DNA from: Methanolobus sp.
GTDB lineage: Archaea; Halobacteriota; Methanosarcinia; Methanosarcinales; Methanosarcinaceae
DNA: 64,000 nucleotides
Assembly (NCBI RefSeq): GCF_016278365.1
Contig: NZ_JADQBZ010000011.1
Location: 78,469-142,468 of the forward strand
Direction: 5' to 3'
This document shows, one piece after another, positions 30,063-57,237 of this stretch. The first letter of the stretch is position 1. Each line of letters opens with the position of its first letter. Under the pieces are notes generated by a model. It saw only the letters and a program-made list of their open reading frames with translations. It had not been told where the DNA came from and made no database searches. Made by a program: the position numbers and the translations under genes.

Positions 30063-30136
30063 AACCGATACATCTATATAAGATAACATCGCCCATCATT
30101 ACATACAATAGCTAATCCGAAAAACGGTAGGTTTTT

Positions 30137-30622
30137 ATGACAACTGAAAGAACTGAAGATTACCTGAAAGCCATAGAAAAAGTTGTGGAGAGAAAAGGTT
30201 ATGCCCAGGTAAAAGATGTTTCACGGGAACTGGAGCTCAGTTCACCAAGTGTTACCGGGATGTTCAAAAAACTTACCAAGCTAGGATACATCAACTATGA
30301 GAAATATGGCGGTGTCACACTTACCGAAGAAGGAGAGAGAATCGCCAAATGCACCATGGAGAAACACGGTGTCATCAGGGACTTCCTCTTACTACTTGGA
30401 CTTGACGAGGAAAATGCCAATCTTGACGCATGCAAAATAGAGCATGTACTTGCACCCGAAACATTTGAGATCCTGACAAAGTTCGTCGAGTTCATTGATA
30501 TGAGAAGTGAATGGCCATACTGGCTGGACCACTTCAGGCACTTTTACACTACAGGCGAATACATTGATTGCAAGCCTTCCCAGAAAGAAGATTGCCCGAT
30601 ACACAAGAATAATAAAAAGTAA
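30137..30622 (+). CDS. DtxR/MntR-family metal-dependent transcriptional repressor
   Basis: It begins TEDYLKAIEKVVERKGYAQVKDVSRELELSSPSVTGMFKKL (wHTH). Metal-site residues follow in the dimerisation domain. The C-terminal tail is Cys/His-containing (CKPSQKEDCPIH). Confidence 0.85.
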   Translation: MTTERTEDYLKAIEKVVERKGYAQVKDVSRELELSSPSVTGMFKKLTKLGYINYEKYGGVTLTEEGERIAKCTMEKHGVIRDFLLLLGLDEENANLDACKIEHVLAPETFEILTKFVEFIDMRSEWPYWLDHFRHFYTTGEYIDCKPSQKEDCPIHKNNKK

Positions 30623-30726
30623 GTATTAACTGCAAAGTGTATCAATAATGCATTGAAGGCTATGTTACTGACAGTTGCAAAGAGTGCACAGTCGATTCAT
30701 TCCGGTTGTTTTGCATGCAGAAACAT

Positions 30727-30742
30727 ATTAGCTATCGCGATA
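30727..30742. promoter_or_regulatory. candidate operator upstream of feoA (ATTAGCTAT overlapping the perfect palindrome TATCGCGATA)
   Basis: The 10-bp perfect palindrome spans 30733-30742. It abuts a TATA-like CTATATATC about 60 nt upstream of the feoA ATG. The reverse complement of ATTAGCTAT (ATAGCTAAT) recurs at 30108-30116 upstream of the dtxR-like gene. Confidence 0.35.
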
Positions 30743-30807
30743 TTGCTATATATCAAAAGTAGGATTACCGTATCAGAGATTTTGATAGTAAGAAGGAACT
30801 GCTTAAA

Positions 30808-31044
30808 ATGTCCGAGATCACGCTTGACACGCTTAAACCGGGAGACATGGCAAGGATAACCAAAGTACGTGTAAAAGGTCCTGCCAGAAGGAAGCTGTTA
30901 GATATGGGGATGGTCGCGGGTTCAGAAGTGGAACTTGTAAGAAAAGCACCATTAGGAGACCCGATAGAGTTCCAGATAAAAGGATATCATCTGTCGATAA
31001 GGAAAGAAGAAGCAAGCCAGATATTTGTCCAGAAGATAGAATAA
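30808..31044 (+). CDS. feoA: FeoA-family ferrous iron transport protein
   Basis: A 78-aa SH3-like protein containing LKPGDMARITKV...RRKLLDMGMVAGSEVELVRKAPLGDPIEF. Confidence 0.9.
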   Translation: MSEITLDTLKPGDMARITKVRVKGPARRKLLDMGMVAGSEVELVRKAPLGDPIEFQIKGYHLSIRKEEASQIFVQKIE

Positions 31045-31103
31045 AGAAACGGCCTTCAATATAAGACTTGCATATCGTATTTACATTAATGAGTGAGGAA
31101 CCT

Positions 31104-33101
31104 ATGGGAAACACGAAGATCAGAGTTGCTCTTGCAGGCAACCCAAATGTGGGAAAGACCACATTGTTCAACGCAATAACCGGGTCCCGACAACATGTGG
31201 GCAACTGGCCCGGTGTTACGGTTGAGAAGAAAACCGGAGTGAAGACCTACAGGGGATACGACATAGAGATCACCGACCTCCCTGGCACCTACAGCCTCAC
31301 AGCATACTCAATGGATGAGATAGTTGCAAGAGATTATATTATAGAAGAAAAACCGGACATTGTTATCCAGATAGTCGACGCTTCGAACCTTGAGAGAAAC
31401 CTCTACCTTACAACACAGTTAATGGAGCTTGAAACAGAGATGATCATAGCCCTTAACATGTGTGATCTCGCTCTGGAAAGAGGTGATAAGCTCTATATCG
31501 ACAGGATGCAGGAAATCCTGGCAGCTCCTATCGTGCAGACTGTAGCAAGCCGTGATATCGGCATCGATGAGCTTCTCGACAGAGTTATCGAGCAGAAACA
31601 GGATGATAAGTACCACGGACGTGAGATTGGTTACGGCGACGTTATTGAGAGCAAGGTCCTTGAAATAGAGAAAATCCTGCTGACAGACCCAAGTCTCCAA
31701 AAGAAGTACCCTCTGCGCTGGATGAGTATAAGATTGCTTGAAGGGGACGGCAATGTTAAGGCAAAGGTGGAGAAAAGCCCGGTGTCAAAGGCCATCAATC
31801 AATTGCTTGCTTCTATTGACCAGGAAGAGTATGAGGCGGAGATAGCAGACAAAAGATATGTTGCCATCAATGCTATTTTTCCGCAGATATGCACCAGATG
31901 TAATGTCAGGCTGACAAAATCAGACATGATCGACCGAGTCCTGACAAACAAATACTTAGGAATACCAATATTCCTGGCCCTGATGTGGGGTGCTTTTGAA
32001 CTTACCTTTGCATTCGCCACACCTTTCACCGACATGATAGAAAGGGTCTTTGTATGGCTGGCGGTCAATGTAAGCTCCGGCCTGGAGCCGCAATGGCTGG
32101 CCTCCCTGATAGGGGATGGTATCATCGGTGGAGTCGGAGCTGTGCTTACATTCGTTCCGAACATATTCATTTTGTTCTTTCTCCTGTCCCTGCTCGAAGG
32201 TAGCGGATATCTTGCCAGAGCAGCATTCATAATGGACAGGCTCATGTATAAGATAGGCATGCATGGAAAATCATTTATCCCATTGCTCATGGGATTCGGG
32301 TGCAATGTCCCTGCCATCATGGCCGCGCGCAGTATAGAGGATGAGAAGGACAGGCTTATTACTATATTAGTAGTGCCATTCGTATCCTGCGGAGCAAGGC
32401 TTCCGATATATATACTTCTGGCCGGGGCATTCTTTGGAAGACAAGCAGGAACCGTTGTGTTCTTCATGTATGTTCTTGGCATAGTTGTGGCAGTCATATC
32501 TGCCAAACTCCTCAGATCAACGATCGTGAAAGGTAAGCCTGCACCATTCATCATGGAAATGCCACCTTACCGCGTGCCTACGCTCAGGACGAGCATTGTG
32601 CACATGTGGGATAACGGGGCGATGTACATCAAAAAAGCAGGAACCATCATACTGCTTGGCGTAGTAATAATATGGTCCCTCGCGTCGTTCCCATGGGGAA
32701 TAGAATATGGGAGTGAAGGAAGTTACGTAGGCATGATAGGTCACTTCTTTGCACCCCTACTTGAGCCCCTCGGTTTTGACTGGAAGATGACCGTAGCCCT
32801 TGTGTTTGGTTTAGTGGCAAAGGAAATAGTTGTGGCATCAATGGGAGTGCTATACGGAGTAGGAGACAACCCTGCAGCTCTGACCACAAGCCTGATCGCT
32901 GACCCATCCATAACCGCCCTTAGTGCACTCAGTCTCATGGTATTCAGTCTGCTGTATATGCCATGTGTGGCAACCCTGGGAGTTATTAAAAAAGAGACCG
33001 GCTCCTGGAAATGGGCGATTTTTGCCCTTATTTACGGGATTGTAGTTGCATGGCTAATAGCTTTCCTGGTATACCAGGGAGGAAAACTGCTTGGATACTG
33101 A
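31104..33101 (+). CDS. feoB: ferrous iron transporter FeoB
   Basis: It has an N-terminal G domain (GNPNVGKTTLFN, DLPGTYS, NMCD) and a polytopic membrane domain. The start was trimmed to the ATG at 31104. Confidence 0.95.
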   Translation: MGNTKIRVALAGNPNVGKTTLFNAITGSRQHVGNWPGVTVEKKTGVKTYRGYDIEITDLPGTYSLTAYSMDEIVARDYIIEEKPDIVIQIVDASNLERNLYLTTQLMELETEMIIALNMCDLALERGDKLYIDRMQEILAAPIVQTVASRDIGIDELLDRVIEQKQDDKYHGREIGYGDVIESKVLEIEKILLTDPSLQKKYPLRWMSIRLLEGDGNVKAKVEKSPVSKAINQLLASIDQEEYEAEIADKRYVAINAIFPQICTRCNVRLTKSDMIDRVLTNKYLGIPIFLALMWGAFELTFAFATPFTDMIERVFVWLAVNVSSGLEPQWLASLIGDGIIGGVGAVLTFVPNIFILFFLLSLLEGSGYLARAAFIMDRLMYKIGMHGKSFIPLLMGFGCNVPAIMAARSIEDEKDRLITILVVPFVSCGARLPIYILLAGAFFGRQAGTVVFFMYVLGIVVAVISAKLLRSTIVKGKPAPFIMEMPPYRVPTLRTSIVHMWDNGAMYIKKAGTIILLGVVIIWSLASFPWGIEYGSEGSYVGMIGHFFAPLLEPLGFDWKMTVALVFGLVAKEIVVASMGVLYGVGDNPAALTTSLIADPSITALSALSLMVFSLLYMPCVATLGVIKKETGSWKWAIFALIYGIVVAWLIAFLVYQGGKLLGY

Positions 33102-33115
33102 ACAGAGGTTATAAG

Positions 33116-33583
33116 ATGAGCACTACAGACAAAATGCTGTTCGCCCTTATTATGGGATGTAGCTACATCCTTATTGGAATGGTCCAGTTGATAACAGGCG
33201 CCTTAAAAGCCCTGTCAGAAGCCAGCATGACAGAGTATGCAGGACATGTGATAGCAGACGGTCTGTTCATCCCGCCGGATATTATTGCAGGGATGATCCT
33301 CATGCTTATAGGATGCGTATTCCTGTATGGGGCATCAGAGATACACTCCGGAGTACACGAAGGAGTTGCATATGTTTATGTGGGAATCCTGCTTTCCCTT
33401 ATATTTGCAGGAATATATGTGCTTGCAGCGACAGGCGACTTGCTTGAGGCCCATCTGCTAAAGAATGAGGAGTATGCCGGCTGGTCGATCCTTGATGCAC
33501 TCAGGCCTGAGATATATCTGGGAGTGTTGTCGTTGCTCACATATCTTAAGTGGAAGGACAGCTTTGAAGTTGCAGAGAATTGA
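33116..33583 (+). CDS. uncharacterised 4-TM membrane protein inside the feo operon
   Basis: A 155-aa ORF that starts 14 nt after the feoB stop and ends 9 nt before the FeoC-like gene. It has four hydrophobic helices and no motif I recognise. Confidence 0.55.
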   Translation: MSTTDKMLFALIMGCSYILIGMVQLITGALKALSEASMTEYAGHVIADGLFIPPDIIAGMILMLIGCVFLYGASEIHSGVHEGVAYVYVGILLSLIFAGIYVLAATGDLLEAHLLKNEEYAGWSILDALRPEIYLGVLSLLTYLKWKDSFEVAEN

Positions 33584-33592
33584 GTTGATATA

Positions 33593-33871
33593 ATGCTTAA
33601 AGAGGTATTGAAAGGCCTTTACCTTGAGAACCTTTCATACGGAGAGGTTGCGCAACGGTTTAACATCAGCCCCGATACGCTGAAGGGAGTTATGCAGAAT
33701 ATGGAGCATATGGGCTACATCAGGGAGATTTGCGATGACGGCGAGCCAGCTGCCGGACAAGAGTGTTGCACCTGTCCTTCATCACCAGCGTGCCATAAAT
33801 GGAAGTCCTACCACAACGGTAAAAAGTATGTCCTGACTGAAAAAGGAGATAGGATGATCAGCAAGGAATGA
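33593..33871 (+). CDS. FeoC-like winged-helix protein with Cys-rich tail
   Basis: It has a wHTH-like region (LSYGEVAQRFNISPDTLKGVMQNMEHMGYIREI). A Cys cluster follows (CDDG...ECCTCPSSPACH). Confidence 0.6.
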   Translation: MLKEVLKGLYLENLSYGEVAQRFNISPDTLKGVMQNMEHMGYIREICDDGEPAAGQECCTCPSSPACHKWKSYHNGKKYVLTEKGDRMISKE

Positions 33872-33945
33872 TTATTTAGTTCTTACGCTGTTTCTCACAG
33901 GATACAAATCCAATTGACTTGAGATACGTGTTTTTATTCGATTAC

Positions 33946-48614: not shown

Positions 48615-49268
48615 ATGGAAAAGAACACACGACTTATACTCGCGCTGGACGTGCTGGACGGCGATGAAGCTCTGAGGATATCCGGGGATGTGGCAGGATA
48701 CGTGGACGCCATCAAGGTCGGCTATCCCCTTATACTGGCGACCGGACTCGGGATAATAACAGAGTTGTCAAAGTATGCACCCATCATCGCAGATTTCAAA
48801 GTTGCGGACATCCCCAACACCAACCGCCTTATCTGCGAGCAGGTCTTCCGGGCCGGTGCAGATGCCGTGATCATACAGGGTTTTACAGGGCATGACAGCC
48901 TCAGAAGCTGTGTGGAACTGGCAAAGAGCAGCAACAAGGATATTTTCGTGGTCACCGAGATGAGCCATCCGGGTGCACTTGACTTCATGCAGGCTGCAGG
49001 CGGAGCTATTGCGAAGATGGCTGCAGATGAGAAAGCTTCCGGCGTGGTTGCTCCTGCAACACGCCCCGAGAGAGTAAGGAAGATCAGGGAGATAATAGGT
49101 AATGAACTGACAATAATCTCACCAGGGGTAGGTGCGCAGGGAGGAAGCGCTTCCGATGCCATCAAGGCTGGTGCCGACTGGGTAATTGTGGGCAGGAGCA
49201 TCTACCTGGCAGAAGAACCGGCGAGAGCTGCAGCAGACATCGTTGCCGATATAAAGACCGGGATCTGA
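48615..49268 (+). CDS. pyrF: orotidine 5'-phosphate decarboxylase
   Basis: It contains LILALDV, the [10 protein letters not shown] catalytic lysine motif and [10 protein letters not shown]. Confidence 0.9.
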
Positions 49269-49444
49269 AAAGAGAACATGTCCGCAATTGCGACAAAACA
49301 AGATCAAAAGTAAAGAAGGACTAAAGAAAGATGTGCCTGTGATGAGAAAATCGTTCTGATCTATGATGAACCCTATGAGTACTGAGGCACATTTTAGTAC
49401 TTACGCTTATTACTACTTTCTGACCGCTTATATATTTCTTATAT

Positions 49445-51259
49445 TCACCCTGAGAGTTCCATATTCATTTTAAGTATATGGGAAAACATCTCTTGTTTCC
49501 TTGCATCTGACATGGCGTCTTCAAGGGTCCTTTGCATTTCTTTCAGGGAATCCTCAAGGCTTTTAATGTAGACGGACTGTTGCTCAAGTCTTGTGTTCAC
49601 TTTCCGGATGTCCAGATGCTGGCGATGGAGAGTGATATGTGCTCCAATCTCCTTCTCAGTGGTTCCCAAAAGGTCTTCAAGCTCCCTGCGACGGGACTCA
49701 AGTTCATTGAAGCCCGATTCAAGGTCACTTTCCAGCTTAGAGGTGTCTTCACGTTTCAGACGAATATTCTCAAGCTCCGATTCCAGTGAAGCTTTTTCGG
49801 ACTCGATCTCACTCCTCCACGAAACGATTTTAGTCTCCTCTGATTCAAGTTTACTCTTATTGGAATCTATCTCAGATTGCTTTTGCTTGATAACATCTTC
49901 TTCATAGGATATGGAAAGCTTTTGTTCTTCGAGTGCTGCACGTCTCTCCTCAAAGGACCTGAACTCTTCCTCGTACAAAGAAGTTGAAGCTTGCAGTTTA
50001 TTATTGTTCTCTGTATAGATACGGAGGTTTTCCTCATACTCAAGGATGTTCTGCTGGTAAACCTCGATGTCTTTCTCAAAGGCACATACTTTTTCCTGGA
50101 ACTCCACAGACCTTGAATTGATCCTGGCAATCTCAATATCCACGAGTTTGCGGGATTCATATGCTGCAAGCTTCCTTTTGCCAAGTGCATACTCTTTTTT
50201 TGCCTGCTCGGTCAGGAACTCTTCAAGTTCATGTTGTTGCTGCCGGAAAAGAGCGTAATCGGCATCATACTTTTGAGTAAGTTGTGCAAGTGTCCGCTCA
50301 TTCTCCTCATGAACACGGACCATGTTATCGTGGGCCTCCATAGCAGCCTCAAGTTCTGCGGTCTGCGGTATCAGTCTGGAGAATTCGCTCTGGACCTGCT
50401 CTTTTATTTCCATGATACTGGAACTTTTAGCATTGAGCAATGATTCTTCATTCTCCAGTTCCTCCCTGAGTGTACCAAGATCAGCACGCTTGCGGTTAAG
50501 TTCCTTCAATTCTGAGTAATACCGGGATTTGACAAGGTCTATGGCAGTGCCGCAGTTCAATCCTTCAATGTTCATTGAAAGATCATTTCCTGAAGCAAGC
50601 TGCTCCTCGAGAGAATGCGCTTTTTCCTCCAGCTCTTTCTGTTTATCAAGATACTCCTGCATCCCTTCTTCGTAGCTGGACATCAGGCAAGAAAGCTCCG
50701 TATTTTTATTTTCGAGCAAAGCAAAACGCTGTTCATAGTCCTTTTGTGATGTTTCGAACTCTTCCACCTGCCTTTCAAATTCAGCTTTGTCCTTCTCAAA
50801 AACAGAACGTTTCTCTTCGAGCTCTTTAACCTGTGCAGCAGGAATAGACTCTTCAGCTTTCAGCACCACAGATTTAAGTATGGTGCATTTGCGACCGAGC
50901 AACTCTTCCTGTCTGGACATATCCTCTTTTAGTGCTTCAAGATGCTTTTGCTTTTCCTCGTATTCTTTCATCTGGGAATTATATCTTTCCTTCACATCAG
51001 TAAGTACAGCTTCCTTTTCCCTGTACTCCTTTATTTGTGCTTCATATTGTTCCCGCAACTGCTCAAGATCGAACTCAAGAGTTTTAACTATGGTCTTCTG
51101 ATTATAGATACCGGGACTTTCCGGGGTATGAGAATCAGAGTCCTTATCACGGCTTTCCTCGTTAATAACAGGCTTACGATATATATTAGGAGTAAAATCA
51201 GGATTTGGACGGCTTTTCGCACTCGGTTTGGAATTTTTTGACCAGTTTAATGAACTCAT
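49445..51259 (-). CDS. large (~600 aa) coiled-coil protein, partner of the upstream actin-fold ATPase
   Basis: The N-terminal ~60 aa are S/P/K/N-rich. The rest is almost uninterrupted E/K/L/Q-rich sequence with recurring [YF]E[EK] units (KEYREKE, KEYEEKQ, QEYLDKQ, LEYEENL, VEFQEKV). No TM helix or enzymatic motif is present. The ATG at 51259 lies 10 nt after the upstream stop; a GTG at 51268 is the alternative. Confidence 0.7.
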   Translation of the reverse strand: MSSLNWSKNSKPSAKSRPNPDFTPNIYRKPVINEESRDKDSDSHTPESPGIYNQKTIVKTLEFDLEQLREQYEAQIKEYREKEAVLTDVKERYNSQMKEYEEKQKHLEALKEDMSRQEELLGRKCTILKSVVLKAEESIPAAQVKELEEKRSVFEKDKAEFERQVEEFETSQKDYEQRFALLENKNTELSCLMSSYEEGMQEYLDKQKELEEKAHSLEEQLASGNDLSMNIEGLNCGTAIDLVKSRYYSELKELNRKRADLGTLREELENEESLLNAKSSSIMEIKEQVQSEFSRLIPQTAELEAAMEAHDNMVRVHEENERTLAQLTQKYDADYALFRQQQHELEEFLTEQAKKEYALGKRKLAAYESRKLVDIEIARINSRSVEFQEKVCAFEKDIEVYQQNILEYEENLRIYTENNNKLQASTSLYEEEFRSFEERRAALEEQKLSISYEEDVIKQKQSEIDSNKSKLESEETKIVSWRSEIESEKASLESELENIRLKREDTSKLESDLESGFNELESRRRELEDLLGTTEKEIGAHITLHRQHLDIRKVNTRLEQQSVYIKSLEDSLKEMQRTLEDAMSDARKQEMFSHILKMNMELSG

Positions 51260-51269
51260 AAATATCACT

Positions 51270-52364
51270 TCAGATCGTTTTCAGATTATCACAGTTATTC
51301 AGCCTCTCCCAGAATTCCCCGGGCATTTTTTCTGCAAGCCTGCACGCCCCGTAAGCTCCGGCAAACTCGGGATCATCTATGAGGAAAACCCTGCCGCCAC
51401 CAAATCCTTTTAACTCGTTTTCGATAAAGCTGCGCACGTTCCTTATCTTGCTGCCACCTCCACATAGACAGATATTGTTCCTTAAAGCCTCACGGAAGTG
51501 TGGTTCTGCACCGGAAACCATCTTTATGATCCCTGAAACTATATCCGGAATTATAGACTCACAAGCAAGCCTTAATTCTTCAGTAATGATCATTTCTTGG
51601 GATGAATCACTCAGGGGCAGTGCTACTTTGTACTCCTCATCCACATCTCCTACAAAACCATAGGATTCTTTCCACCCATTTGCAAGTTCCGGTGTTGCTT
51701 TTAAGCCGTCGTATTTTTCTGCCAGCAGATCAACAAGTTCCTTGTCAACATCTTCACCGGCAACAGAGATACTGAGATAATCCTCTTCTTCTGGAATGTT
51801 GCTTTTTATGCGACATATATCCGTTTTACTTGTGCCCATATCGATGATCAGAGAGCCTTCAAACTTCTGACTTCCGTATGCAACGCAGAAGAGCCCGTTT
51901 GCTATCATCACACCTCTGAAGAGATGCCGCGCCGCTTCCAGCACCGTTCGTTTATAGGATGCGCTGGCAACTGAAGGTACACTTATCATAGCATACATCT
52001 GCCCTGGATCGGCAGAAACACCAGCAGCCTGGATACAATGCTCCAGCAATATTTTCAGGCAACCCGGCCCTACTGCATCCTCATCTTTGATCAAGTCCCT
52101 TACAGGCCACTTTCTTTCGAGGTCCGTTCTCTCAAAGATTGACTTTCCGAAAAATATCTCATCTCCGTCACCGATTTGAGAGAAATCTCCATCACTGTGG
52201 GCAATGAGACTATGTTCTGAGAACATGATCCCATCATTAGTACATATCTTTATCTTCGAAGTGCCCAGGTCAATCCCCAGATAAATAATATTCTCATTAT
52301 CTTCAGGCACAACGGAGTCGTCAACAATATCAATTCCGTCTTGGAAATTTTCAGGGGTAACCAC
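51270..52364 (-). CDS. actin-fold (ASKHA superfamily) ATPase, MreB/FtsA/ParM/Hsp70-NBD-like, subfamily unassigned
   Basis: It carries GIDLGTSKIKI (phosphate-1), IIDMGTSKTDI (phosphate-2) and LCGGGSKIRNV (adenosine motif). The ORF is 364 aa. It appears to start at a GTG at 52364, 7 nt after GAGG; no ATG lies upstream of the first motif. Confidence 0.75.
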   Translation of the reverse strand: MVTPENFQDGIDIVDDSVVPEDNENIIYLGIDLGTSKIKICTNDGIMFSEHSLIAHSDGDFSQIGDGDEIFFGKSIFERTDLERKWPVRDLIKDEDAVGPGCLKILLEHCIQAAGVSADPGQMYAMISVPSVASASYKRTVLEAARHLFRGVMIANGLFCVAYGSQKFEGSLIIDMGTSKTDICRIKSNIPEEEDYLSISVAGEDVDKELVDLLAEKYDGLKATPELANGWKESYGFVGDVDEEYKVALPLSDSSQEMIITEELRLACESIIPDIVSGIIKMVSGAEPHFREALRNNICLCGGGSKIRNVRSFIENELKGFGGGRVFLIDDPEFAGAYGACRLAEKMPGEFWERLNNCDNLKTI

Positions 52365-52433
52365 AGTAATGCCTCATAACTTTACATATTGATAATAAAA
52401 AGGCTATACAAATCAGTATATATATATTATGGA

Positions 52434-52452
52434 CATAGAATCGAATTCTATG
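52434..52452. promoter_or_regulatory. perfect 8-bp-stem palindrome CATAGAAT-CGA-ATTCTATG next to a TATA-like (TA)n tract upstream of the actin-like gene
   Basis: I read it directly from the sequence. It lies 70-88 nt upstream of the GTG at 52364, and the TATATATATA tract spans about 52419-52430. Confidence 0.3.
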
Positions 52453-52627
52453 GCGATAGCGCTGACCTTCAAATAAAAAAAAGCATGAGTCATTCATAGT
52501 ATTATTATTCTACTAACATAGATATATTACAAACCAGCACTAGACGTCAGCCCTGTTGTGCTTGAATCCCGGTCCATTACTTGTTCTCGAATGAATAAAG
52601 TTGTGTAAGGTGATTATTTCTGAGAAT

Positions 52628-53230
52628 TCAAACGCACAACTTGCGGTACAACTGTGCGTTTGCAACAACCGGTTCAAAATGGCTCTCAAGAACTTCAGGC
52701 ATCTTCTGGGTCTGCTCCGTTGCAAAATATCCTTCGTCCAGAGAATCATGGAACATCCTTATAACATCGACACGTTCCTGCTCATTGAAATGCAGGAGCA
52801 CATTCTTGCACATGATCAGATTCAAGCCTGACCTTATGGGTTTCATGCTCAGGAGATCATGCTTTGTAAATGAGACACTTTTCCGGATTTCCTCTGAAAT
52901 TGTATAATGGCCAGGCTCTTCTGCAGGAGAAAAGTATTTTTCAAATATCGGCCCGGGTATCCTCTGCACCTGTTCTAATGGGTATGTACCTTTTTTGATG
53001 ATATCTCCGAATAGATTGCTGCCATCGATATCTGTTGCGTGGATCTTCACGTTCCTGAATATCATGCCCATATTCTCCCGCAGCACTATAGCCAGCGAAT
53101 ATGGCTCGGGTCCCATTGCACAGCCTGCATCCCATATGTGGATGTACCTGCGCGTTCTCAGACCCGGGATAACATAGTCGCGAATCATCTCAAGGGTCTG
53201 CATATCTCTGAAAAAATAAGTGAAAGCCAT
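52628..53230 (-). CDS. cheR: CheR-type SAM-dependent protein-glutamate methyltransferase, short form lacking the N-terminal helical domain
   Basis: It starts at the TYFFRD motif that opens the CheR catalytic domain. The SAM motif IWDAGCAMGPEPYS is present. It is 200 aa, whereas canonical CheR is larger. Confidence 0.75.
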   Translation of the reverse strand: MAFTYFFRDMQTLEMIRDYVIPGLRTRRYIHIWDAGCAMGPEPYSLAIVLRENMGMIFRNVKIHATDIDGSNLFGDIIKKGTYPLEQVQRIPGPIFEKYFSPAEEPGHYTISEEIRKSVSFTKHDLLSMKPIRSGLNLIMCKNVLLHFNEQERVDVIRMFHDSLDEGYFATEQTQKMPEVLESHFEPVVANAQLYRKLCV

Positions 53231-53256
53231 GATAATGGGAAAAGAGATCTTGCCGT

Positions 53257-53748
53257 TCAGGCAAGATTTGTTATCTCAGTTATCTCTTCAACTGTCAGGA
53301 CCCTGCCAAGATCAAGAAGTATGAGCAACCGTTTATCGATCTTTCCGACACCTTTCAGGTAGTTCCTGCTGACTTTGGACATAACAAGTTCGGGAGCAGG
53401 TTCGACACTGGATACAGGTATCCGCAGCACCTCATTCACCGAGTCCACGATCATGCCGACAACAGTGGTTCCGATTTCCACTACTATTATCCTTGAATTT
53501 TCATCGGCTACCCTGGAATGCAGATTAAAACGTTTGCTGAGGTTCACAACCACAATTATCCTGCCTCTGAGGTTTATCACACCCTCTACAAAATCAGGAG
53601 ACTGAGGAATCTGAGTCAGCTCAGGCATCCTTATTATCTCCTGTACGTTCATGATCTCCACACCGAACTCTTCGCCGCCCAGCTCAAAAACAACTAATTG
53701 CAGCAGATCTGCTGCATTACTTTTTCCTTCGAATGAATTGTCAACCAT
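53257..53748 (-). CDS. cheW: chemotaxis coupling protein CheW
   Basis: A 163-aa ORF containing LVVFELGGEEFGVEI...VINLRGRIIVVVNL...RIIVVEIG...GVGKIDKRLLILLDL. Confidence 0.9.
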   Translation of the reverse strand: MVDNSFEGKSNAADLLQLVVFELGGEEFGVEIMNVQEIIRMPELTQIPQSPDFVEGVINLRGRIIVVVNLSKRFNLHSRVADENSRIIVVEIGTTVVGMIVDSVNEVLRIPVSSVEPAPELVMSKVSRNYLKGVGKIDKRLLILLDLGRVLTVEEITEITNLA

Positions 53749-53767
53749 GTTATAGGTCCCCTAAATA

Positions 53768-56605
53768 TTATAGAAGGGCATGTCCCTTGCGTTTACTACC
53801 TGTGGATATGGAGCCTTGTTTGTTCTTTGGGGAATCTATTTGCTGCGCCGGAGCAATGCCTGTTGTTTCATCAAGGAGGAATTTATCAACTACACTCTGC
53901 ATTTCTCCGGCAACATGTGCCAGATCCTCTGCTGACTTTGAGAGTTCCTGCATAGTAGCTGTCTGCTCCTGGACAGCAGCTGAAGCTTCTTCAGTACCGG
54001 CTGCAGACTCCTCTGAAACTGCTGATACTTCTTCAACAGAAGATGTAACCTCTTCAATAGATGCTGACTGCTCCTGGGCTGCCGCTGCGATATCCTGAAC
54101 CATGTGAGCTATTGTGTCCCCGGCCTTTACGACTTTTTCTATTACAGCTGCAGCTTCATTGAGAGCTGCGGCACCTGTGGAAACCTCTACAGCACCCTGC
54201 TGCATAGTTGTCACGGCATTGGATGTACCTGCCTGTATCTGGTGTATAAGACCAGCTATCTGCTTGGCTGCATTACCGGAATCCTCGGCCAGTTTCCTTA
54301 CCTCATCTGCAACTACAGCGAACCCACGACCATGCTCTCCTGCCCTTGCAGCTTCTATTGCTGCATTGAGAGCAAGCAAGTTGGTCTGGTCAGCGATGCT
54401 TGTTATAAGACTCACTATCTCACCGATCTGTTTGGATTTACCGTCAAGTTCCATTATAGCTGAAGAGGAATCTGAAGATGCATCTTTGATGCCTTCCATC
54501 TTTTTAAGCAGGTCCTTTGTGATAACACCCAGATCATGAAGAAGTTCATTGGACTCCTTGGCAGTTTCTGCGGCCTTCTGGGAGTTTGTCGCGACTTCCT
54601 GGACAGTCATGGTCATATCAACCATCGCGCGGGAAACTTCCTCGGTCTTAGACGCCTGATTCTGCGCTCCTTTGGATATCTCTGAGACCGTATCTGCTAT
54701 CTGGTAGGATGAAGAGGTCAGCTCTTCCACAGATGCAGACATCTCTTCTGCGGTTGCAGCTACATTCTTGGAGGTGCCCTGCACCATGGAAACGACATCA
54801 TTCAGGGATTTTCGGGTGTTCTCGATACCGTCTGTGAGCAACTTGAACTCACCAACACCTTCCACCTGCACTGCACGTGTCAGGTTGTTGTCTGACATGG
54901 CACTGAGCACCTCGCTGGAATCATCAATGATTGCCTGAAGACTCTCTCCAAAGTTGTCAAGAGCACTGGCAAATATCTTGAAATCTCCCTGTGTTTCAAA
55001 GCTTACCCTGACACCCAAGTTACCTTCCGAGTATTCATTGACTATTCTGATAGCTTCATTCAGGGGTGTCACAAGCGCATCAATGGCACTATTGACGGTA
55101 TTGATGGCTTCCTGGAAAGCACCTTCATAAGCAGACCCGTCAGCCCTGTAATCAAGATTTCCGGCCTCGCTGGCATGACCCAGTTTTATGAACTCATCAA
55201 CAATGCCCTCGATGTTGCTCATCATTGCAATGTAGCAGGGTATCAGTTCGTCGTTCTCAGAACGCTTGCCCACTTTTTTAAGGTTCTGGAGGTCACTGAG
55301 GTCACCTACAGCGATCTTCTTGTTGACTGACATAACTGTGCGTATTCTGTCACGGACAGAGTTTGTAGCAGTACCCATATCTGCAAAGATACCCTGATAG
55401 TGCCCCTCTACCCTGCGAGTGTGGTCGTTCTCTGCCATAAGCTGCAATACTTCGTTGCTCTCCTGAAGTCCTGCGAGACCATCGATACAGGCATTGATGT
55501 TATTTTTGATAACATTGAAATCACCTTTATAGTCGTCAGTGATCTTTTCCGGAACCTCTCCCCGGGATATGCTCTCGACATACTCTGCTGTCAGGTTCAG
55601 AGGATTAATAACTGCATCAAATGCCTTGTTTACGGTCACAATAGCTTCATTGAACAGGCCATCAAACCCGGAAGCATCTGTCCTGTGTGCCAGATTGCCC
55701 TCTTCGGCAGCTTTGCCCAGCACAATGAACTCATCTGCCATGCCTTTGACTTTTTCCATCACTGCTATTGTGTTTGGAAGGAGCTTGTCGTTCTCAGAAC
55801 GTTTGCCTACTTTCCTGTACTTCTCAAGATCATCGAAGTTCCCTACAGCCATATACTCGAATGTGCGCTCGATGTTGAGCAACCTGTTACGAACCTCATT
55901 CACAGCGTATGCATTATCCTTGAAGATGCCTGGATATTCGCCGGTCACACCATCTTCAAAGTCATTTACCGCCAGCTTTAGGAGAATGGATGTACTCTCA
56001 TTGAGAGGCTTTGATATCGCATCGAGATTGCTGTTCATGCTCTCAATTATCGTTCTGAAATCACCGCCATGTTGAGAAGCATCCACACGCACATCAACCT
56101 TACCTGCGGCAGTTGCTTCTGCAAGCTTTGCGGAATCTACCATGAGGGCATTTATCGCATCCACACATGTATTGAGATTGTTCCTCAGGTCATTGAAAGA
56201 GCCCTTGAATTCCTTTGTACTCTTTGGAGGAATGTCACCCTTGGAAAGCCTTTCTACAAACTTTGATGCAGCCATGAAAGGTTTTACCATCGAGTCCATC
56301 AGGCTGTTCACATCATCTGCAAGTCCTTTTGCATCAGCATCAAATTTATCTGCATTTACGCGGGCATCAAGTTGTCCTTCCTGTACACACTTTTTCAATT
56401 TATCAACTTCAACTGTGACAGCTACCTGAGAGTCTGCAGTTTTTTTCCATTGCATGGCATTGTCAAGGAAAACATTGAATGCTTCAGCAGTTTCTTTGTC
56501 CTTGCCGGTCAGTTCTGCGTTTATACGTGTGTTAAGATTGCCATTACTAACGCTTTCAAGCACACGATCGATCTCTTTATTCAGTTTGTTGTTAATTCCA
56601 AGCAT
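53768..56605 (-). CDS. soluble methyl-accepting chemotaxis protein with multiple HAMP-like modules (no TM helix seen)
   Basis: The C-terminal signalling domain has the conserved hairpin ([38 protein letters not shown]). The N-terminal ~600 aa are helical repeats without hydrophobic segments. Confidence 0.9.
55251..55810 (-). repeat. internal tandem duplication within the MCP gene (period 537 nt = 179 codons)
   Basis: A 23-nt segment, TCGTTCTCAGAACG(C/T)TTGCC(C/T)AC, occurs at 55251 and 55788 with 21/23 identical. It encodes the two KVGKRSEND(K/E)L(L/I)P copies. The flanking protein sequence also aligns ([32 protein letters not shown] vs [32 protein letters not shown]). Confidence 0.7.
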
Positions 56606-56886
56606 TTTAAACCCTCATCAATTGCATATATTAGAAAGTTCAATCGAGGTTAGGCAAATAGCAAAGTACCTTCATAAATATAATATTAATATTATAGATT
56701 AAAGTACTAATATAAAAATATATGACATTATATATTTTGTAATACTATATTTAAGAGTATTCTAGAGATTAGATCTTGTCTAGAACTGTAACGCATAAAA
56801 TAGCAGCTGAATTATCCTTGTACTACATCGGTAACAATCTGAATGTATAATAAAAAATAGAAAAAGATAAGACGTATGCTGTAAAG

Positions 56887-57237
56887 TTATGCGGGAATAG
56901 CACCCGTGTTTTCCAACTGACCTATTTGCTTTTTTTGTTCCTGAGTGAATATCTTATCGATATCTAACAAGATGAGCAGCCTTTCATCGATCTTACCTAC
57001 ACCCTGGATGTACCTCTCAGTGATCTTTGAGGTTATGATCTCAGGTGCAGACTCAATATTCTCACTCGATATTCTTAGTACTTCAGTAACTGCGTCAACG
57101 ACCATTCCTGCGACCATATTTCCAATCTCCACAACTATTATACGGGAATCATCACTTATTTCTTCATGGGCAAGATTGATAAGTGGAGTTACACTGCAAC
57201 AGAAGTTGATGATGACTGTGACGTGATTTCTGTAAAG
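56887..57237 (-). pseudogene. 5'-truncated cheW paralogue (relic or N-terminally shortened CheW-like ORF)
   Basis: The open frame after the stop at 57238-57240 reads ...NHVTVIINF...SDDSRIIVVEIGNMVAGMVVDAVTEVLRI...GVGKIDERLLILLDI. This aligns with residues ~60-163 of the intact CheW. The N-terminal ~55 residues and any ATG before that point are missing. Confidence 0.5.

What the first reader, a model, noticed from the sequence alone, without database searches (positions are those of the whole stretch)
49445..52364. Translationally coupled actin-fold ATPase plus ~600-aa coiled-coil protein: candidate uncharacterised archaeal filament or positioning module
Seen in the sequence:
- The 364-aa ORF carries the three ASKHA nucleotide-binding signatures in the right order and spacing: GIDLGTSKIKI, IIDMGTSKTDI and LCGGGSKIRNV.
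- It is the size of a bare actin/MreB/ParM/FtsA-type core with no extra domains, and it seems to use a GTG start.
- Its stop is 1-10 nt from the start of a ~600-aa ORF. That ORF has a disordered-looking S/P/K/N-rich head followed by about 540 residues of near-continuous coiled coil with recurring [YF]E[EK] units. It has no TM segment and no catalytic motif.

Established knowledge: actin-like filaments usually work with dedicated adaptor or partner proteins (ParM/ParR, MamK/MamJ, FtsA/FtsZ). Archaeal actin families are patchily distributed and only partly characterised.

Inference: this could be a two-component cytoskeletal or cargo-positioning system in a methanogen. I cannot place the ATPase in a named actin subfamily by eye.
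Basis: partly seen in the sequence, partly recalled or inferred. Interest (0 to 1): 0.7.

Follow-up and report, generated by a model that had tools for sequence, protein, structure and literature searches.

The report
Archaeal MamK-like actin with coiled-coil partner
A Methanolobus methanogen carries a two-gene operon for a divergent relative of the bacterial magnetosome actin MamK and a 604-residue coiled-coil partner; the pair recurs in every archaeal locus examined and has not been characterised, and in related archaea the partner carries an archaellum-motor (FlaD/E) domain.

Summary
Two minus-strand genes, 51270-52364 (364 aa) and 49445-51259 (604 aa), lie 10 nt apart behind their own conserved promoter.

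The first protein is not an unplaced actin. It belongs to the MamK family (PDB MamK E 7e-51; Foldseek TM 0.84-0.88), but it is a divergent archaeal branch with no magnetosome genes nearby. In this sub-lineage the catalytic Glu (MamK E143) is Gly157, so I infer slow ATP hydrolysis and stable filaments.

The second protein has a disordered 54-residue head followed by about 550 helical residues. It has no SMC head or hinge domain, no Walker A motif and no TM segment.

The pairing is conserved in all 36 archaeal loci I examined:
- 10 Methanolobus loci carry the long partner.
- 1 Methanosarcinaceae MAG carries a long partner with an N-terminal FlaD/E domain.
- 25 Methanoperedens-type loci carry a roughly 200-aa partner with FlaD/E domain plus coiled coil.
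- None of 20 bacterial MamK-like loci has it.

All partner forms share a 63-residue C-terminal tail. The heads differ.

Best reading: an actin-like filament with a dedicated adaptor, where the tail is the shared end (filament binding or oligomerisation) and the head is the cargo end. The ancestral cargo was plausibly the archaellum switch complex. The function is untested. I rate it a new variant of a known kind, of moderately high interest.

The parts
52410..52437 (-). Conserved promoter block (TATGTCCATAATATATATATACTGATTT) containing a TATA-like box, 46 nt upstream of the GTG start.
   Evidence: It is nearly invariant upstream of the actin-like gene in all 9 aligned Methanolobus loci, whatever the upstream neighbour. 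It occurs once in the window against 0 expected. It occurs once in each of the 10 Methanolobus loci and in none of the Methanoperedens-type loci, bacterial loci or loci of the tail paralogue.
52428..52458 (.). Imperfect inverted repeat (14-nt arms, 3-nt spacer) overlapping the upstream edge of the promoter block; a possible operator.
   Evidence: Repeat I14. The outer GCCAT...ATG positions are invariant in the alignment. A regulatory role is inferred, not shown.
52372..52375 (-). Shine-Dalgarno-like GAGG, 7 nt upstream of the GTG start.
   Evidence: Read from the sequence. GAGG or GGGG is conserved at this position in 7 of 9 loci.
51270..52364 (-). Divergent MamK-family actin-like protein, 364 aa, with a disordered acidic N-terminus (residues 1-22).
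   Evidence: NCBIfam MamK gives E 6.4e-72 and 242 bits over the full length. PDB MamK 5ljw gives E 7e-51. The AlphaFold2 model has pLDDT 84.8 and pTM 0.84. Foldseek's top hits are MamK, with TM 0.84-0.88.
51894..51896 (-). Codon GGG for Gly157, at the position of the catalytic Glu of MamK (E143).
   Evidence: Alignment. Glu is kept in every bacterial MamK relative aligned but one (P0065, Ser), in MreB, in Methanoperedens and in some Methanolobus. It is Gly in the window and 11 close relatives (P0002-P0012). Mutation of E143 or D161 abolishes ATPase activity and filament dynamics (PMC5059902).
49445..51259 (-). Coiled-coil partner, 604 aa (607 aa if translation starts at the GTG at 51268).
   Evidence: The family is very narrow: 10 clusters with E <= 1e-10 among 1.84 billion representative proteins.
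51167..51199 (-). Conserved head motif DFTPNIYRKPV (residues 21-31) inside the disordered head (residues 1-54, 51098-51259).
   Evidence: TPNIYRKP is invariant across 9 Methanolobus partners. The region has pLDDT below 50.
49448..49639 (-). Conserved C-terminal tail (residues 541-604: HITLHRQHLDI...LEQQSVYIKSLE...KQEMFSHILKMNMEL).
   Evidence: It is shared with the Methanoperedens short partners (hhalign probability 88.7%, E 2.6e-6). It is also shared with the L011 long partner and with stand-alone 283-287-aa paralogues.

Best explanation
This is a self-contained two-gene cytoskeletal module.

The first gene encodes a divergent archaeal member of the MamK family of actin-like proteins. I infer that it polymerises into filaments. 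In the window's sub-lineage the catalytic glutamate is replaced by glycine, so I further infer that ATP hydrolysis is slow and the filaments are long-lived scaffolds rather than treadmilling polymers.

The second gene is co-transcribed and probably translationally coupled. It encodes a rod-like coiled-coil adaptor with about 550 helical residues, which would span up to about 80 nm if fully extended.

The partner's conserved 63-residue C-terminal tail is the one element common to every partner form. It is therefore the likeliest filament-binding or self-association end. The variable N-terminal head is the likeliest cargo end.

In Methanoperedenaceae and in one Methanosarcinaceae lineage the head is a FlaD/E (ArlD/E) domain. 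This domain builds the archaellar switch complex. The ancestral cargo was therefore plausibly the archaellum motor or switch complex, or its polar anchoring structure. Methanolobus replaced that domain with a short conserved peptide (TPNIYRKP) whose target is unknown.

Shown: family placement, fold, loss of the Glu, coiled-coil architecture, conserved pairing, shared tail, FlaD/E heads in relatives, and an own promoter.

Inferred: polymerisation, static filaments, which end binds what, and the cargo. I put the module architecture at about 0.85, the tail-to-filament and head-to-cargo polarity at about 0.5, and the archaellum or taxis link at about 0.3.
For: MamK-family placement:
- NCBIfam MamK gives 242 bits, against MreB 53 and salactin 30.
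- PDB MamK gives E 7e-51.
- Foldseek's top hits are MamK filament and monomer structures.
- The Methanoperedens and L011 orthologues score 395 and 381 bits, just under the cut-off of 400.

Glu to Gly: shown, with the functional meaning taken from PMC5059902. Purifying selection on both genes is shown.

Partner architecture.

Pairing: present in 36 of 36 archaeal loci and 0 of 20 bacterial loci. Gaps between the two genes run from a 4-nt overlap to 29 nt. In Methanoperedens loci such as L012 the start directly follows the stop.

Shared tail: hhalign E 2.6e-6. L011 is an intermediate form, with a FlaD/E head plus a long rod that is 28% identical over 520 aa (E 2e-39).

FlaD/E domain: E 3e-19 to 5e-13 in Methanoperedens partners.

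Archaellum background: ArlD and ArlCE dock on ArlH, recruit CheF, and also bind an unidentified polar factor (PMC7534055). Methanoperedenaceae have archaellum genes and upregulate them in planktonic cells (PMC13046784).

Gene neighbours: MCP-CheW-CheR genes lie directly upstream in the window, L006 and L010. Two archaeal type IV pilin genes lie downstream in L011.

Precedent: MamK works with coiled-coil Mad proteins in Desulfovibrio magneticus (PMC12748827).
Against: - No polymerisation, interaction or localisation data exist for any member of this clade.
- The window's own partner lacks the FlaD/E domain, and its head shows no detectable remnant of it (hhalign probability 0.1%).
- No archaellum genes lie in the 64-kb window.
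- Adjacency to che genes holds in only 3 of 10 Methanolobus loci. Five others have a polyphosphate cluster upstream instead.
- The pair has its own conserved promoter, which weakens any inference from neighbouring genes.
- The shared tail could be an oligomerisation element rather than an actin-binding one. Stand-alone paralogues with the same tail exist away from any actin gene.
- The Gly157 change could also mean that the protein is no longer a nucleotide-dependent polymer at all.
Confidence: 0.55

Rival explanations
1. The filament and adaptor position storage granules, such as polyphosphate in Methanolobus, in the way MamK positions magnetosomes.
For: In 5 of 10 Methanolobus loci (L007, L008/ZRKC2, L009/ZRKC3, L059/WCC4, L060) the pair lies about 200 nt downstream of CHAD-PPK1-PPX genes, on the same strand. 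MamK is itself an organelle-positioning actin. The related salactin shows a phenotype only under low phosphate (PMC10746226).
Against: The five loci belong to one genus and share ancestry, so they amount to roughly one observation. The window, L006 and L010 have che genes upstream instead, and L005 has a transposase-like gene. The Methanoperedens loci show no polyphosphate genes next to the pair. The pair has its own promoter. Nothing in the partner resembles a CHAD or other polyphosphate-binding domain.
Confidence: 0.12
2. The partner is itself an intermediate-filament-like polymer. Together with the actin-like protein it forms a static cortical scaffold for cell shape, division or envelope organisation, with no specific cargo.
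For: The rod is long and continuous, with aromatic residues recurring at 7-residue spacing. Loss of the catalytic Glu favours a static structure. A paralogue with the same tail could co-assemble. Methanoperedens has a pleomorphic life cycle (cited in PMC13046784).
Against: Methanoperedens partners are only about 200 aa, with a rod of about 90 residues, which is too short for a typical intermediate-filament-like protein. The heads look like interaction modules: a FlaD/E domain or a conserved peptide. By my own recollection, not checked here, Methanolobus cells are irregular cocci with no obvious need for a shape determinant. The pair was found in only 6 of the Methanolobus species representatives scanned (the number scanned was not determined), so its distribution may be patchy.
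Confidence: 0.15
3. It is a DNA-segregation system of the ParM/ParR or salactin type, in which the partner links DNA to the filament.
For: Actin plus an adjacent adaptor gene is the ParMR and AlfAB layout. Salactin, whose closest family is MamK, affects DNA partitioning (PMC10746226). The partner's head is basic.
Against: No iterated centromere-like repeats lie upstream or nearby. No DNA-binding domain is detected. The locus is in a core chromosomal position with conserved flanks, not on a plasmid or mobile element. The salactin model scores only 29.7 bits against a cut-off of 400.
Confidence: 0.08
4. The actin-like protein no longer polymerises. It is a pseudo-enzyme or regulator that binds the coiled-coil protein one-to-one.
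For: The catalytic Glu is replaced by Gly and the phosphate-2 loop is altered (DIGAGTTD becomes DMGTSKTD). The branch is long and the MamK model score is low, at 218-245 bits. In the window versus L005 comparison the actin-like gene has dN 0.143 and dN/dS 0.21, against dN 0.080 and dN/dS 0.16 for the partner.
Against: The whole fold is confidently MamK-like, and the top structural match includes the filament form. Mutating D161 in MamK gives stabilised filaments, and the same paper groups E143 with D161 as ATPase-abolishing (PMC5059902). Sister Methanolobus lineages and Methanoperedens keep the Glu.
Confidence: 0.06

Closest known systems
MamK with its accessory proteins (MamJ/LimJ, McaAB, and the coiled-coil Mad20/23/25/26 network of Desulfovibrio magneticus)
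   Same: The actin-like protein belongs to the same sequence and structural family. It is also a filament-forming actin working with dedicated coiled-coil or adaptor proteins (PMC12748827; PMC13170167).
   Different: The host is an archaeon. No magnetosome genes lie in the 64 kb. The score is below the curated MamK cut-off (242 against 400). The catalytic Glu is lost. The partner matches no Pfam or NCBIfam family; it was not compared directly with MamJ or Mad protein sequences.
ArlD/ArlE/ArlCE (FlaD/E) archaellar switch-complex proteins
   Same: The orthologous partners in Methanoperedenaceae and in the L011 MAG carry the Arch_fla_DE domain followed by a coiled coil. NCBI names some of them FlaD/FlaE family proteins.
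   Different: They are encoded next to an actin-like gene rather than within the stretch of locus inspected for archaellum genes. They carry the family-specific C-terminal tail. The window's partner lacks the domain altogether.
Crenactin and the arcadins (arcade cluster of Pyrobaculum)
   Same: An archaeal actin homologue is encoded with dedicated partners. [quoted passage not shown] Another binds through a terminal peptide (arcadin-2) (PMC5173319).
   Different: It is a different actin family: crenactin is close to eukaryotic actin, and no crenactin match was found for the window protein. The host phylum is different, and the partners gave no match to SMC or Rad50 head or hinge domains.
ParM/ParR and AlfA/AlfB plasmid-segregation systems
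   Same: An actin-like gene is immediately followed by its adaptor gene. The adaptor-to-filament contact may likewise be made by a terminal peptide or helix.
   Different: The locus is chromosomal. There are no centromere repeats and no detected DNA-binding domain. ParM models are barely matched.
Salactin (Haloarchaea and other Methanotecta)
   Same: It is an archaeal actin homologue whose nearest family is MamK (PMC10746226).
   Different: The salactin model scores 28-49 bits for all proteins of this clade, against 218-395 bits for the MamK model. Salactin has poor synteny and no reported fixed partner.
BeeR and MreB
   Same: These are the second and third best structural and HMM matches.
   Different: BeeR scores 106 bits against a cut-off of 530, and MreB 53 bits against 293. 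No mreCD genes were seen among the neighbouring genes. The public annotation of this protein as 'rod shape-determining protein MreB' is misleading.

Membership tests
MamK family (NCBIfam NF040964) | Full-length HMM score above the curated cut-off of 400 bits. | tested here: not met
   The window protein scores 242.4 bits. This is by far its best family and the match is full length, but it is below the cut-off. For comparison: Magnetofaba MamK 545, Hydrogenedentota 427, Methanoperedens 395, L011 381, other Methanolobus 218-245.
MamK family | Actin fold closest to solved MamK structures. | tested here: met
   Foldseek ranks 1-3 are MamK 5ljw and 5ljv, with E about 1e-30 and TM 0.84-0.88 normalised by target. 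phmmer against PDB gives E 7e-51.
MamK family | Catalytic residues E143 and D161. | tested here: not met
   D161 is kept as D175. E143 is Gly157. The Glu is kept in sister archaeal lineages.
MamK family | Encoded within a magnetosome gene cluster (mamAB-type genes, with MamJ or Mad partners). | tested here: not met
   Pfam annotation of the whole 64-kb window and its flanks shows only housekeeping, methylotrophy, che and Feo genes.
MamK family | ATP-dependent polymerisation into double filaments. | not testable with these tools
   This needs biochemistry or imaging.
MreB | HMM score above the cut-off, with mreC/mreD context. | tested here: not met
   53 bits against 293, and 41 against 366. 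No mreCD genes were seen among the called neighbours.
Salactin (NF053533) | HMM score above the cut-off of 400 bits. | tested here: not met
   29.7 bits, covering the C-terminal half only.
Non-polymerising ASKHA proteins (Hsp70 NBD, EutJ, sugar kinases) | Best sequence or structural match to these families. | tested here: not met
   EutJ scores 13.6 bits against 182. No Hsp70 match was found. The listed top 50 Foldseek hits are dominated by MamK, BeeR, MreB, actin and Arp structures, with no Hsp70, EutJ or sugar kinase among them.
ParMRC-type segregation locus | Centromere-like iterated repeats and a DNA-binding adaptor. | tested here: not met
   There are no repeat arrays in 49200-53300, only one small inverted repeat in the promoter. 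The partner has no DNA-binding domain match.
SMC/Rad50/MukB | ABC ATPase head (Walker A/B) and a hinge or zinc hook flanking the coiled coil. | tested here: not met
   Only weak matches to the coiled-coil arm: SMC 32.8 bits against 567, Rad50 19.7 against 1087, JetC 23 bits. There is no Walker A motif and no Pfam family.
FlaD/E (ArlD/E) family, Pfam PF04659 | Presence of the Arch_fla_DE domain. | tested here: not met
   It is absent from the window partner and no remnant is found in its head. It is present in the homologous partners of L011 (30.5 bits) and Methanoperedens (49-69 bits), against a cut-off of 21.
New partner family (this work) | C-terminal tail of about 63 residues (HRQ...LEQQ..YI..L...KN..F..IL..N..L), encoded directly downstream of an archaeal MamK-like gene. 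| tested here: met
   Stand-alone paralogues with the same tail also exist.

The most novel reading that the evidence does not exclude
The archaeal MamK-like filament and its FlaD/E-headed coiled-coil adaptor form an actin-based anchoring system for the archaellum motor and switch complex, and perhaps for chemosensory arrays. It would be a Methanosarcinales counterpart, or a component, of the still unidentified euryarchaeal 'polar cap'. In Methanolobus the system has evolved into a static scaffold that hydrolyses ATP poorly, with a new peptide head.
Probability: 0.2. Interest if true: 0.85.

Novelty: new variant of a known kind. Interest (0 to 1): 0.62.

Why it matters
Archaeal cytoskeletons are poorly charted. 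MamK has been treated as the magnetosome actin of bacteria.

This locus defines an archaeal branch of that family, in methanogens and in nitrate- and metal-dependent methane oxidisers. It comes with an obligate and previously undescribed adaptor family.

The FlaD/E domain on the adaptor gives a concrete, testable link between an actin-like filament and the archaellum switch complex. Published work reports that ArlD and ArlCE bind an unknown polar factor and that the composition of the polar cap is unknown.

The natural Glu-to-Gly replacement also offers a ready-made comparison between dynamic and static actin-like filaments within one genus.

Finally, public annotations of these genes ('MreB', 'hypothetical', 'FlaD/FlaE') hide the relationship between them.

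Tried and rejected
2. I tested whether the Methanolobus head motif (W...FTPNIYRKPV) is a remnant of the last helix of the FlaD/E domain (SW...LFIEKLQGKPV). hhalign gave probability 0.1%, so I rejected the idea.
3. MamK A278, where A278D prevents polymerisation, aligns to Glu292 here. That position is variable, and often acidic, across genuine MamK relatives, so it is not informative.
4. Magnetosome context: none in the window.
5. Defence-system models (PADLOC): none for the actin, and only coiled-coil noise for the partner.
6. ParC-like repeats: none.
7. The sigma-70 promoter and intrinsic-terminator scans were no better than shuffles and are irrelevant for an archaeon.
8. The exhaustive profile search for remote partner homologues found only about 10 true clusters. 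Below E 1e-10 the hits are generic coiled coils.
9. A homologue search with the Methanoperedens short partner returned only its own orthologues.
10. The NJ tree did not resolve whether the two archaeal groups form one clade. Methanolobus sits on a long branch. The shared partner tail is the better argument for common origin.
11. The first bootstrap script timed out.
12. A literature search found no paper on MamK-like or actin-like proteins in Methanolobus or Methanoperedens.


Full report
**What is there**

The window is a core chromosomal stretch of a methylotrophic Methanolobus. It is identical to JGI contig Ga0326300_100017 and encodes MtaB/MtaC, ribosomal proteins, mevalonate-pathway genes and FeoAB.

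Two ORFs lie on the minus strand at the reported coordinates: 51270-52364 (364 aa, GTG start) and 49445-51268.

- The stop codon of the first is 1 nt from a GTG and 10 nt from the ATG at 51259.
- The ATG is the start used in public gene calls (604 aa), and all orthologues begin MSSL or MNSL there.
- An SD-like GAAGTGAT spans the upstream stop codon.
- In other species the gap between the two genes runs from a 4-nt overlap to 29 nt. In Methanoperedens loci such as L012 the start directly follows the stop.
- Translational coupling is therefore plausible.

The three nucleotide-binding motifs, the size, the GTG start, the disordered head, the coiled coil, the enrichment of [YF]E[EK] (8 observed against 1.7 +/- 1.25 expected) and the absence of a TM segment or Walker A motif are all confirmed.

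**The actin-like protein**

It can be placed in a named family.

- Its best NCBIfam model is MamK: E 6.4e-72, 242 bits, full length.
- It scores far lower on BeeR (106 bits), MreB (53), salactin (30), FtsA (21) and EutJ (14).
- Against PDB sequences the top hits are the three MamK entries, with E about 1e-50 and roughly 30-34% identity. MreB is at 1e-9.
- An AlphaFold2 model built on 23 archaeal relatives is confident (pLDDT 84.8, pTM 0.84), with only residues 1-22 disordered.
- Its best structural matches are the MamK monomer and filament (TM 0.84-0.88), followed by BeeR, MreB and actin. No Hsp70, EutJ or kinase structure appears among the top 50.

It is, however, a divergent member.

- The score is well below the curated MamK cut-off of 400.
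- On the same model a real magnetotactic MamK scores 545, a Hydrogenedentota relative 427, Methanoperedens 395, the L011 MAG 381 and other Methanolobus 218-245.
- An NJ tree puts Methanolobus (99.5% bootstrap) on a long branch. Both archaeal groups fall outside the bacterial MamK clade, far from MreB.

There are no magnetosome genes anywhere in the window.

**A lost catalytic residue**

The glutamate in the near-universal SEPF motif (MamK E143) is Gly157 here (MIANGLF).

- Gly occurs in the window and 11 close relatives.
- Asp occurs in ZRKC3.
- Glu is retained in ZRKC2, M. halotolerans, WCC4, L060, L011, all Methanoperedens sequences, every bacterial MamK relative aligned but one (P0065, Ser), and MreB.

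D161 is kept as D175. The phosphate-2 loop has changed from DIGAGTTD to DMGTSKTD.

Toro-Nahuelpan et al. state that mutating D161 or E143 abolishes ATPase activity and filament dynamics. They show that the D161A mutant gives stabilised filaments (PMC5059902).

Both genes remain under purifying selection, with dN/dS 0.10-0.21. I therefore infer a functional protein that forms long-lived filaments rather than dynamic ones. This is an inference, not a demonstration.

**The partner**

AlphaFold2 predicts a disordered head (residues 1-54) and four long helices (55-137, 141-222, 236-380, 396-603).

The heptad signal is about 10 SD above shuffles. Aromatic residues recur at 7-residue spacing.

It matches no Pfam family. 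It gives only weak hits to the arms of SMC, Rad50 and JetC, far below their cut-offs. Pfam finds no family, so no head or hinge domain, and there is no Walker A motif. It is therefore not an SMC fragment.

The family is very narrow. A word-indexed search found 7 clusters, all Methanolobus. An exhaustive profile search of 1.84 billion representatives found 10 clusters at E <= 1e-10.

The most conserved parts are a head motif, (D/V)FTPNIYRKP(V/I), and a C-terminal tail of about 65 residues.

**Conservation of the pair**

A scan of one genome per species found the actin-like gene in three groups:

- 6 Methanolobus species
- 1 other Methanosarcinaceae MAG (L011)
- about 24 Methanoperedens or Methanoperedenaceae genomes

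Bacterial relatives (Planctomycetota, Syntrophia, Rhodothermales and others) follow at 27-36% identity.

Every Methanolobus locus has the long partner immediately downstream. This includes two further complete genomes found through the partner.

L011 has a 630-aa partner that is 28% identical over 520 residues (E 2e-39). Its first approximately 80 residues are an Arch_fla_DE (FlaD/E, or ArlD/E) domain.

All 25 Methanoperedens-type loci have a 177-209-aa gene directly after the actin-like gene. It encodes an Arch_fla_DE domain (E 3e-19 to 5e-13) followed by about 90 residues of coiled coil.

Profile-profile comparison aligns the last 63 residues of the long and short partners at probability 88.7% and E 2.6e-6.

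None of the 20 bacterial loci has such a gene.

The partners thus form one family with three parts:

- a constant tail
- a rod of variable length (about 90 to 550 residues)
- interchangeable heads

Methanolobus also has stand-alone paralogues of 283-287 aa that carry the tail but no head. They lie elsewhere in the genome, for example in ZRKC3.

**Regulation and neighbours**

A 28-nt block with a TATA-like box, preceded by a small dyad, is almost invariant upstream of the pair in all aligned Methanolobus loci, although the encoded proteins are only 37-59% identical. It is unique in the window and occurs once in each Methanolobus locus. The pair is therefore its own transcription unit.

The downstream neighbours are conserved: OMP decarboxylase and deoxyhypusine synthase, in convergent orientation.

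The upstream neighbours differ:

- MCP-CheW-CheR in the window, L006 and L010
- a CHAD-PPK1-PPX polyphosphate cluster in five loci
- a TnpB-like gene in L005

In Methanoperedens only the pair itself is constant. L011 has two archaeal type IV pilin genes downstream.

**How it most likely works**

By analogy with MamK, ParM and crenactin, the actin-like protein should form filaments and the co-encoded protein should be its adaptor.

The tail is the only element common to all partners, and the actin is the only common neighbour. The tail is therefore the best candidate for the filament-binding or self-association end, and the head for the cargo-binding end.

The head of the Methanoperedens and L011 forms is the domain that builds the archaellar switch complex. 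ArlD and ArlCE form an interdependent complex, dock on ArlH, recruit CheF, and also bind an unidentified polar factor. The composition of the polar cap is unknown (PMC7534055).

Methanoperedenaceae possess archaellum genes and upregulate them in planktonic cells (PMC13046784).

This makes tethering or positioning of the archaellum motor or switch complex the best-supported specific function. I put it at only about 0.3, for four reasons:

- The window's own partner has swapped the domain for a peptide.
- No remnant of the domain is detectable in that head.
- There are no arl genes nearby.
- Gene-neighbour evidence is weak, given the dedicated promoter.

The rival explanations are polyphosphate or other granule positioning, a static cortical scaffold, DNA segregation, and a non-polymerising pseudo-enzyme. 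They are listed with their evidence in the rivals section.

**Comparison and novelty**

The module works like known actin-plus-adaptor systems: MamK with MamJ or the coiled-coil Mad proteins (PMC12748827), ParM/ParR, and crenactin with the arcadins (PMC5173319).

By membership, the actin is a sub-threshold, Glu-less archaeal offshoot of the MamK family. The partner is a new family that, in relatives, is fused to a FlaD/E domain.

I found no paper describing MamK-like or actin-like proteins in Methanolobus or Methanoperedens. Public annotations call the genes MreB, hypothetical or FlaD/FlaE.

I rate it a new variant of a known kind. The interest is moderately high, mainly because it offers a testable link between an actin-like cytoskeleton and the archaeal motility machinery.

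Noticed in passing
window 52628-57132 (minus strand): A chemotaxis mini-cluster lies directly upstream of the pair. It has a truncated CheW (81 aa, matching only the C-terminal half of the domain), a 945-aa MCP with HAMP_2 repeats, a full CheW (163 aa), and a 200-aa CheR that has only the SAM-binding domain and lacks the N-terminal CheR domain. No CheA or CheY is nearby.
   Followed up: partly
window 52410-52458; also L005-L010, L059 and L060 upstream of the actin-like gene: A promoter block (CATGTYCATAATAYATAWATACTGATTT) with an adjacent GCCAT...ATG dyad is very strongly conserved across Methanolobus species whose proteins have diverged to about 40% identity. This suggests a dedicated regulator. 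The block is absent upstream of the tail paralogue and in Methanoperedens.
   Followed up: partly
L007, L008, L009, L059, L060 (about 200 nt upstream of the pair): A polyphosphate gene cluster (ferredoxin, CHAD, PPK1, PPX, sometimes PPK2) directly precedes the pair in five Methanolobus genomes. In the window's lineage che genes occupy that position instead.
   Followed up: partly
L063:6001-6852 (Methanolobus sp. ZRKC3) and L061/L062: Stand-alone paralogues of 283-287 aa carry the partner's mid-rod motif and C-terminal tail but have no head. They are followed by a conserved 122-125-aa gene of unknown function and lie far from the actin-like gene.
   Followed up: partly
L045:6812-7984, L050:6617-8029, L048:6878-7975: In non-magnetotactic bacteria (Thermodesulfovibrionia, Syntrophobacteraceae, Rhodothermales) the MamK-family gene is immediately preceded by an Amidase_3 (N-acetylmuramoyl-L-alanine amidase) gene that shares an N-terminal motif. 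In L044 and L053 a coiled-coil protein sits upstream instead. MamK relatives outside magnetotactic bacteria therefore seem to have their own recurring partners.
   Followed up: partly
L011:5184-6064: Two tandem archaeal type IV pilin genes (Pilin_N, PF07790) lie about 730 nt downstream of the FlaD/E-headed long partner in the Methanosarcinaceae MAG.
   Followed up: no
L012:9600-10967 and related Methanoperedens loci: In some Methanoperedens loci a multihaem cytochrome with a PGF-CTERM anchor lies just downstream of the pair. It is followed by an HTH_3 protein and a 759-760-aa gene whose N-terminal sequence looks like PEP synthase (not scanned against Pfam). This arrangement is not conserved across the family.
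   Followed up: no
window about 30100-33900 (plus strand): An iron-uptake cluster (iron-dependent repressor, FeoA, FeoB, an MJ0565-like protein, FeoC) lies about 17 kb from the MamK-like gene. There is no other sign of a biomineralisation link.
   Followed up: no
L005:493-1611: A 372-aa gene replaces the che or polyphosphate genes upstream of the pair in one Methanolobus MAG. By eye its N-terminal sequence looks like TnpB/IS605 OrfB (not scanned against any family library). This marks the position as a rearrangement hotspot.
   Followed up: no
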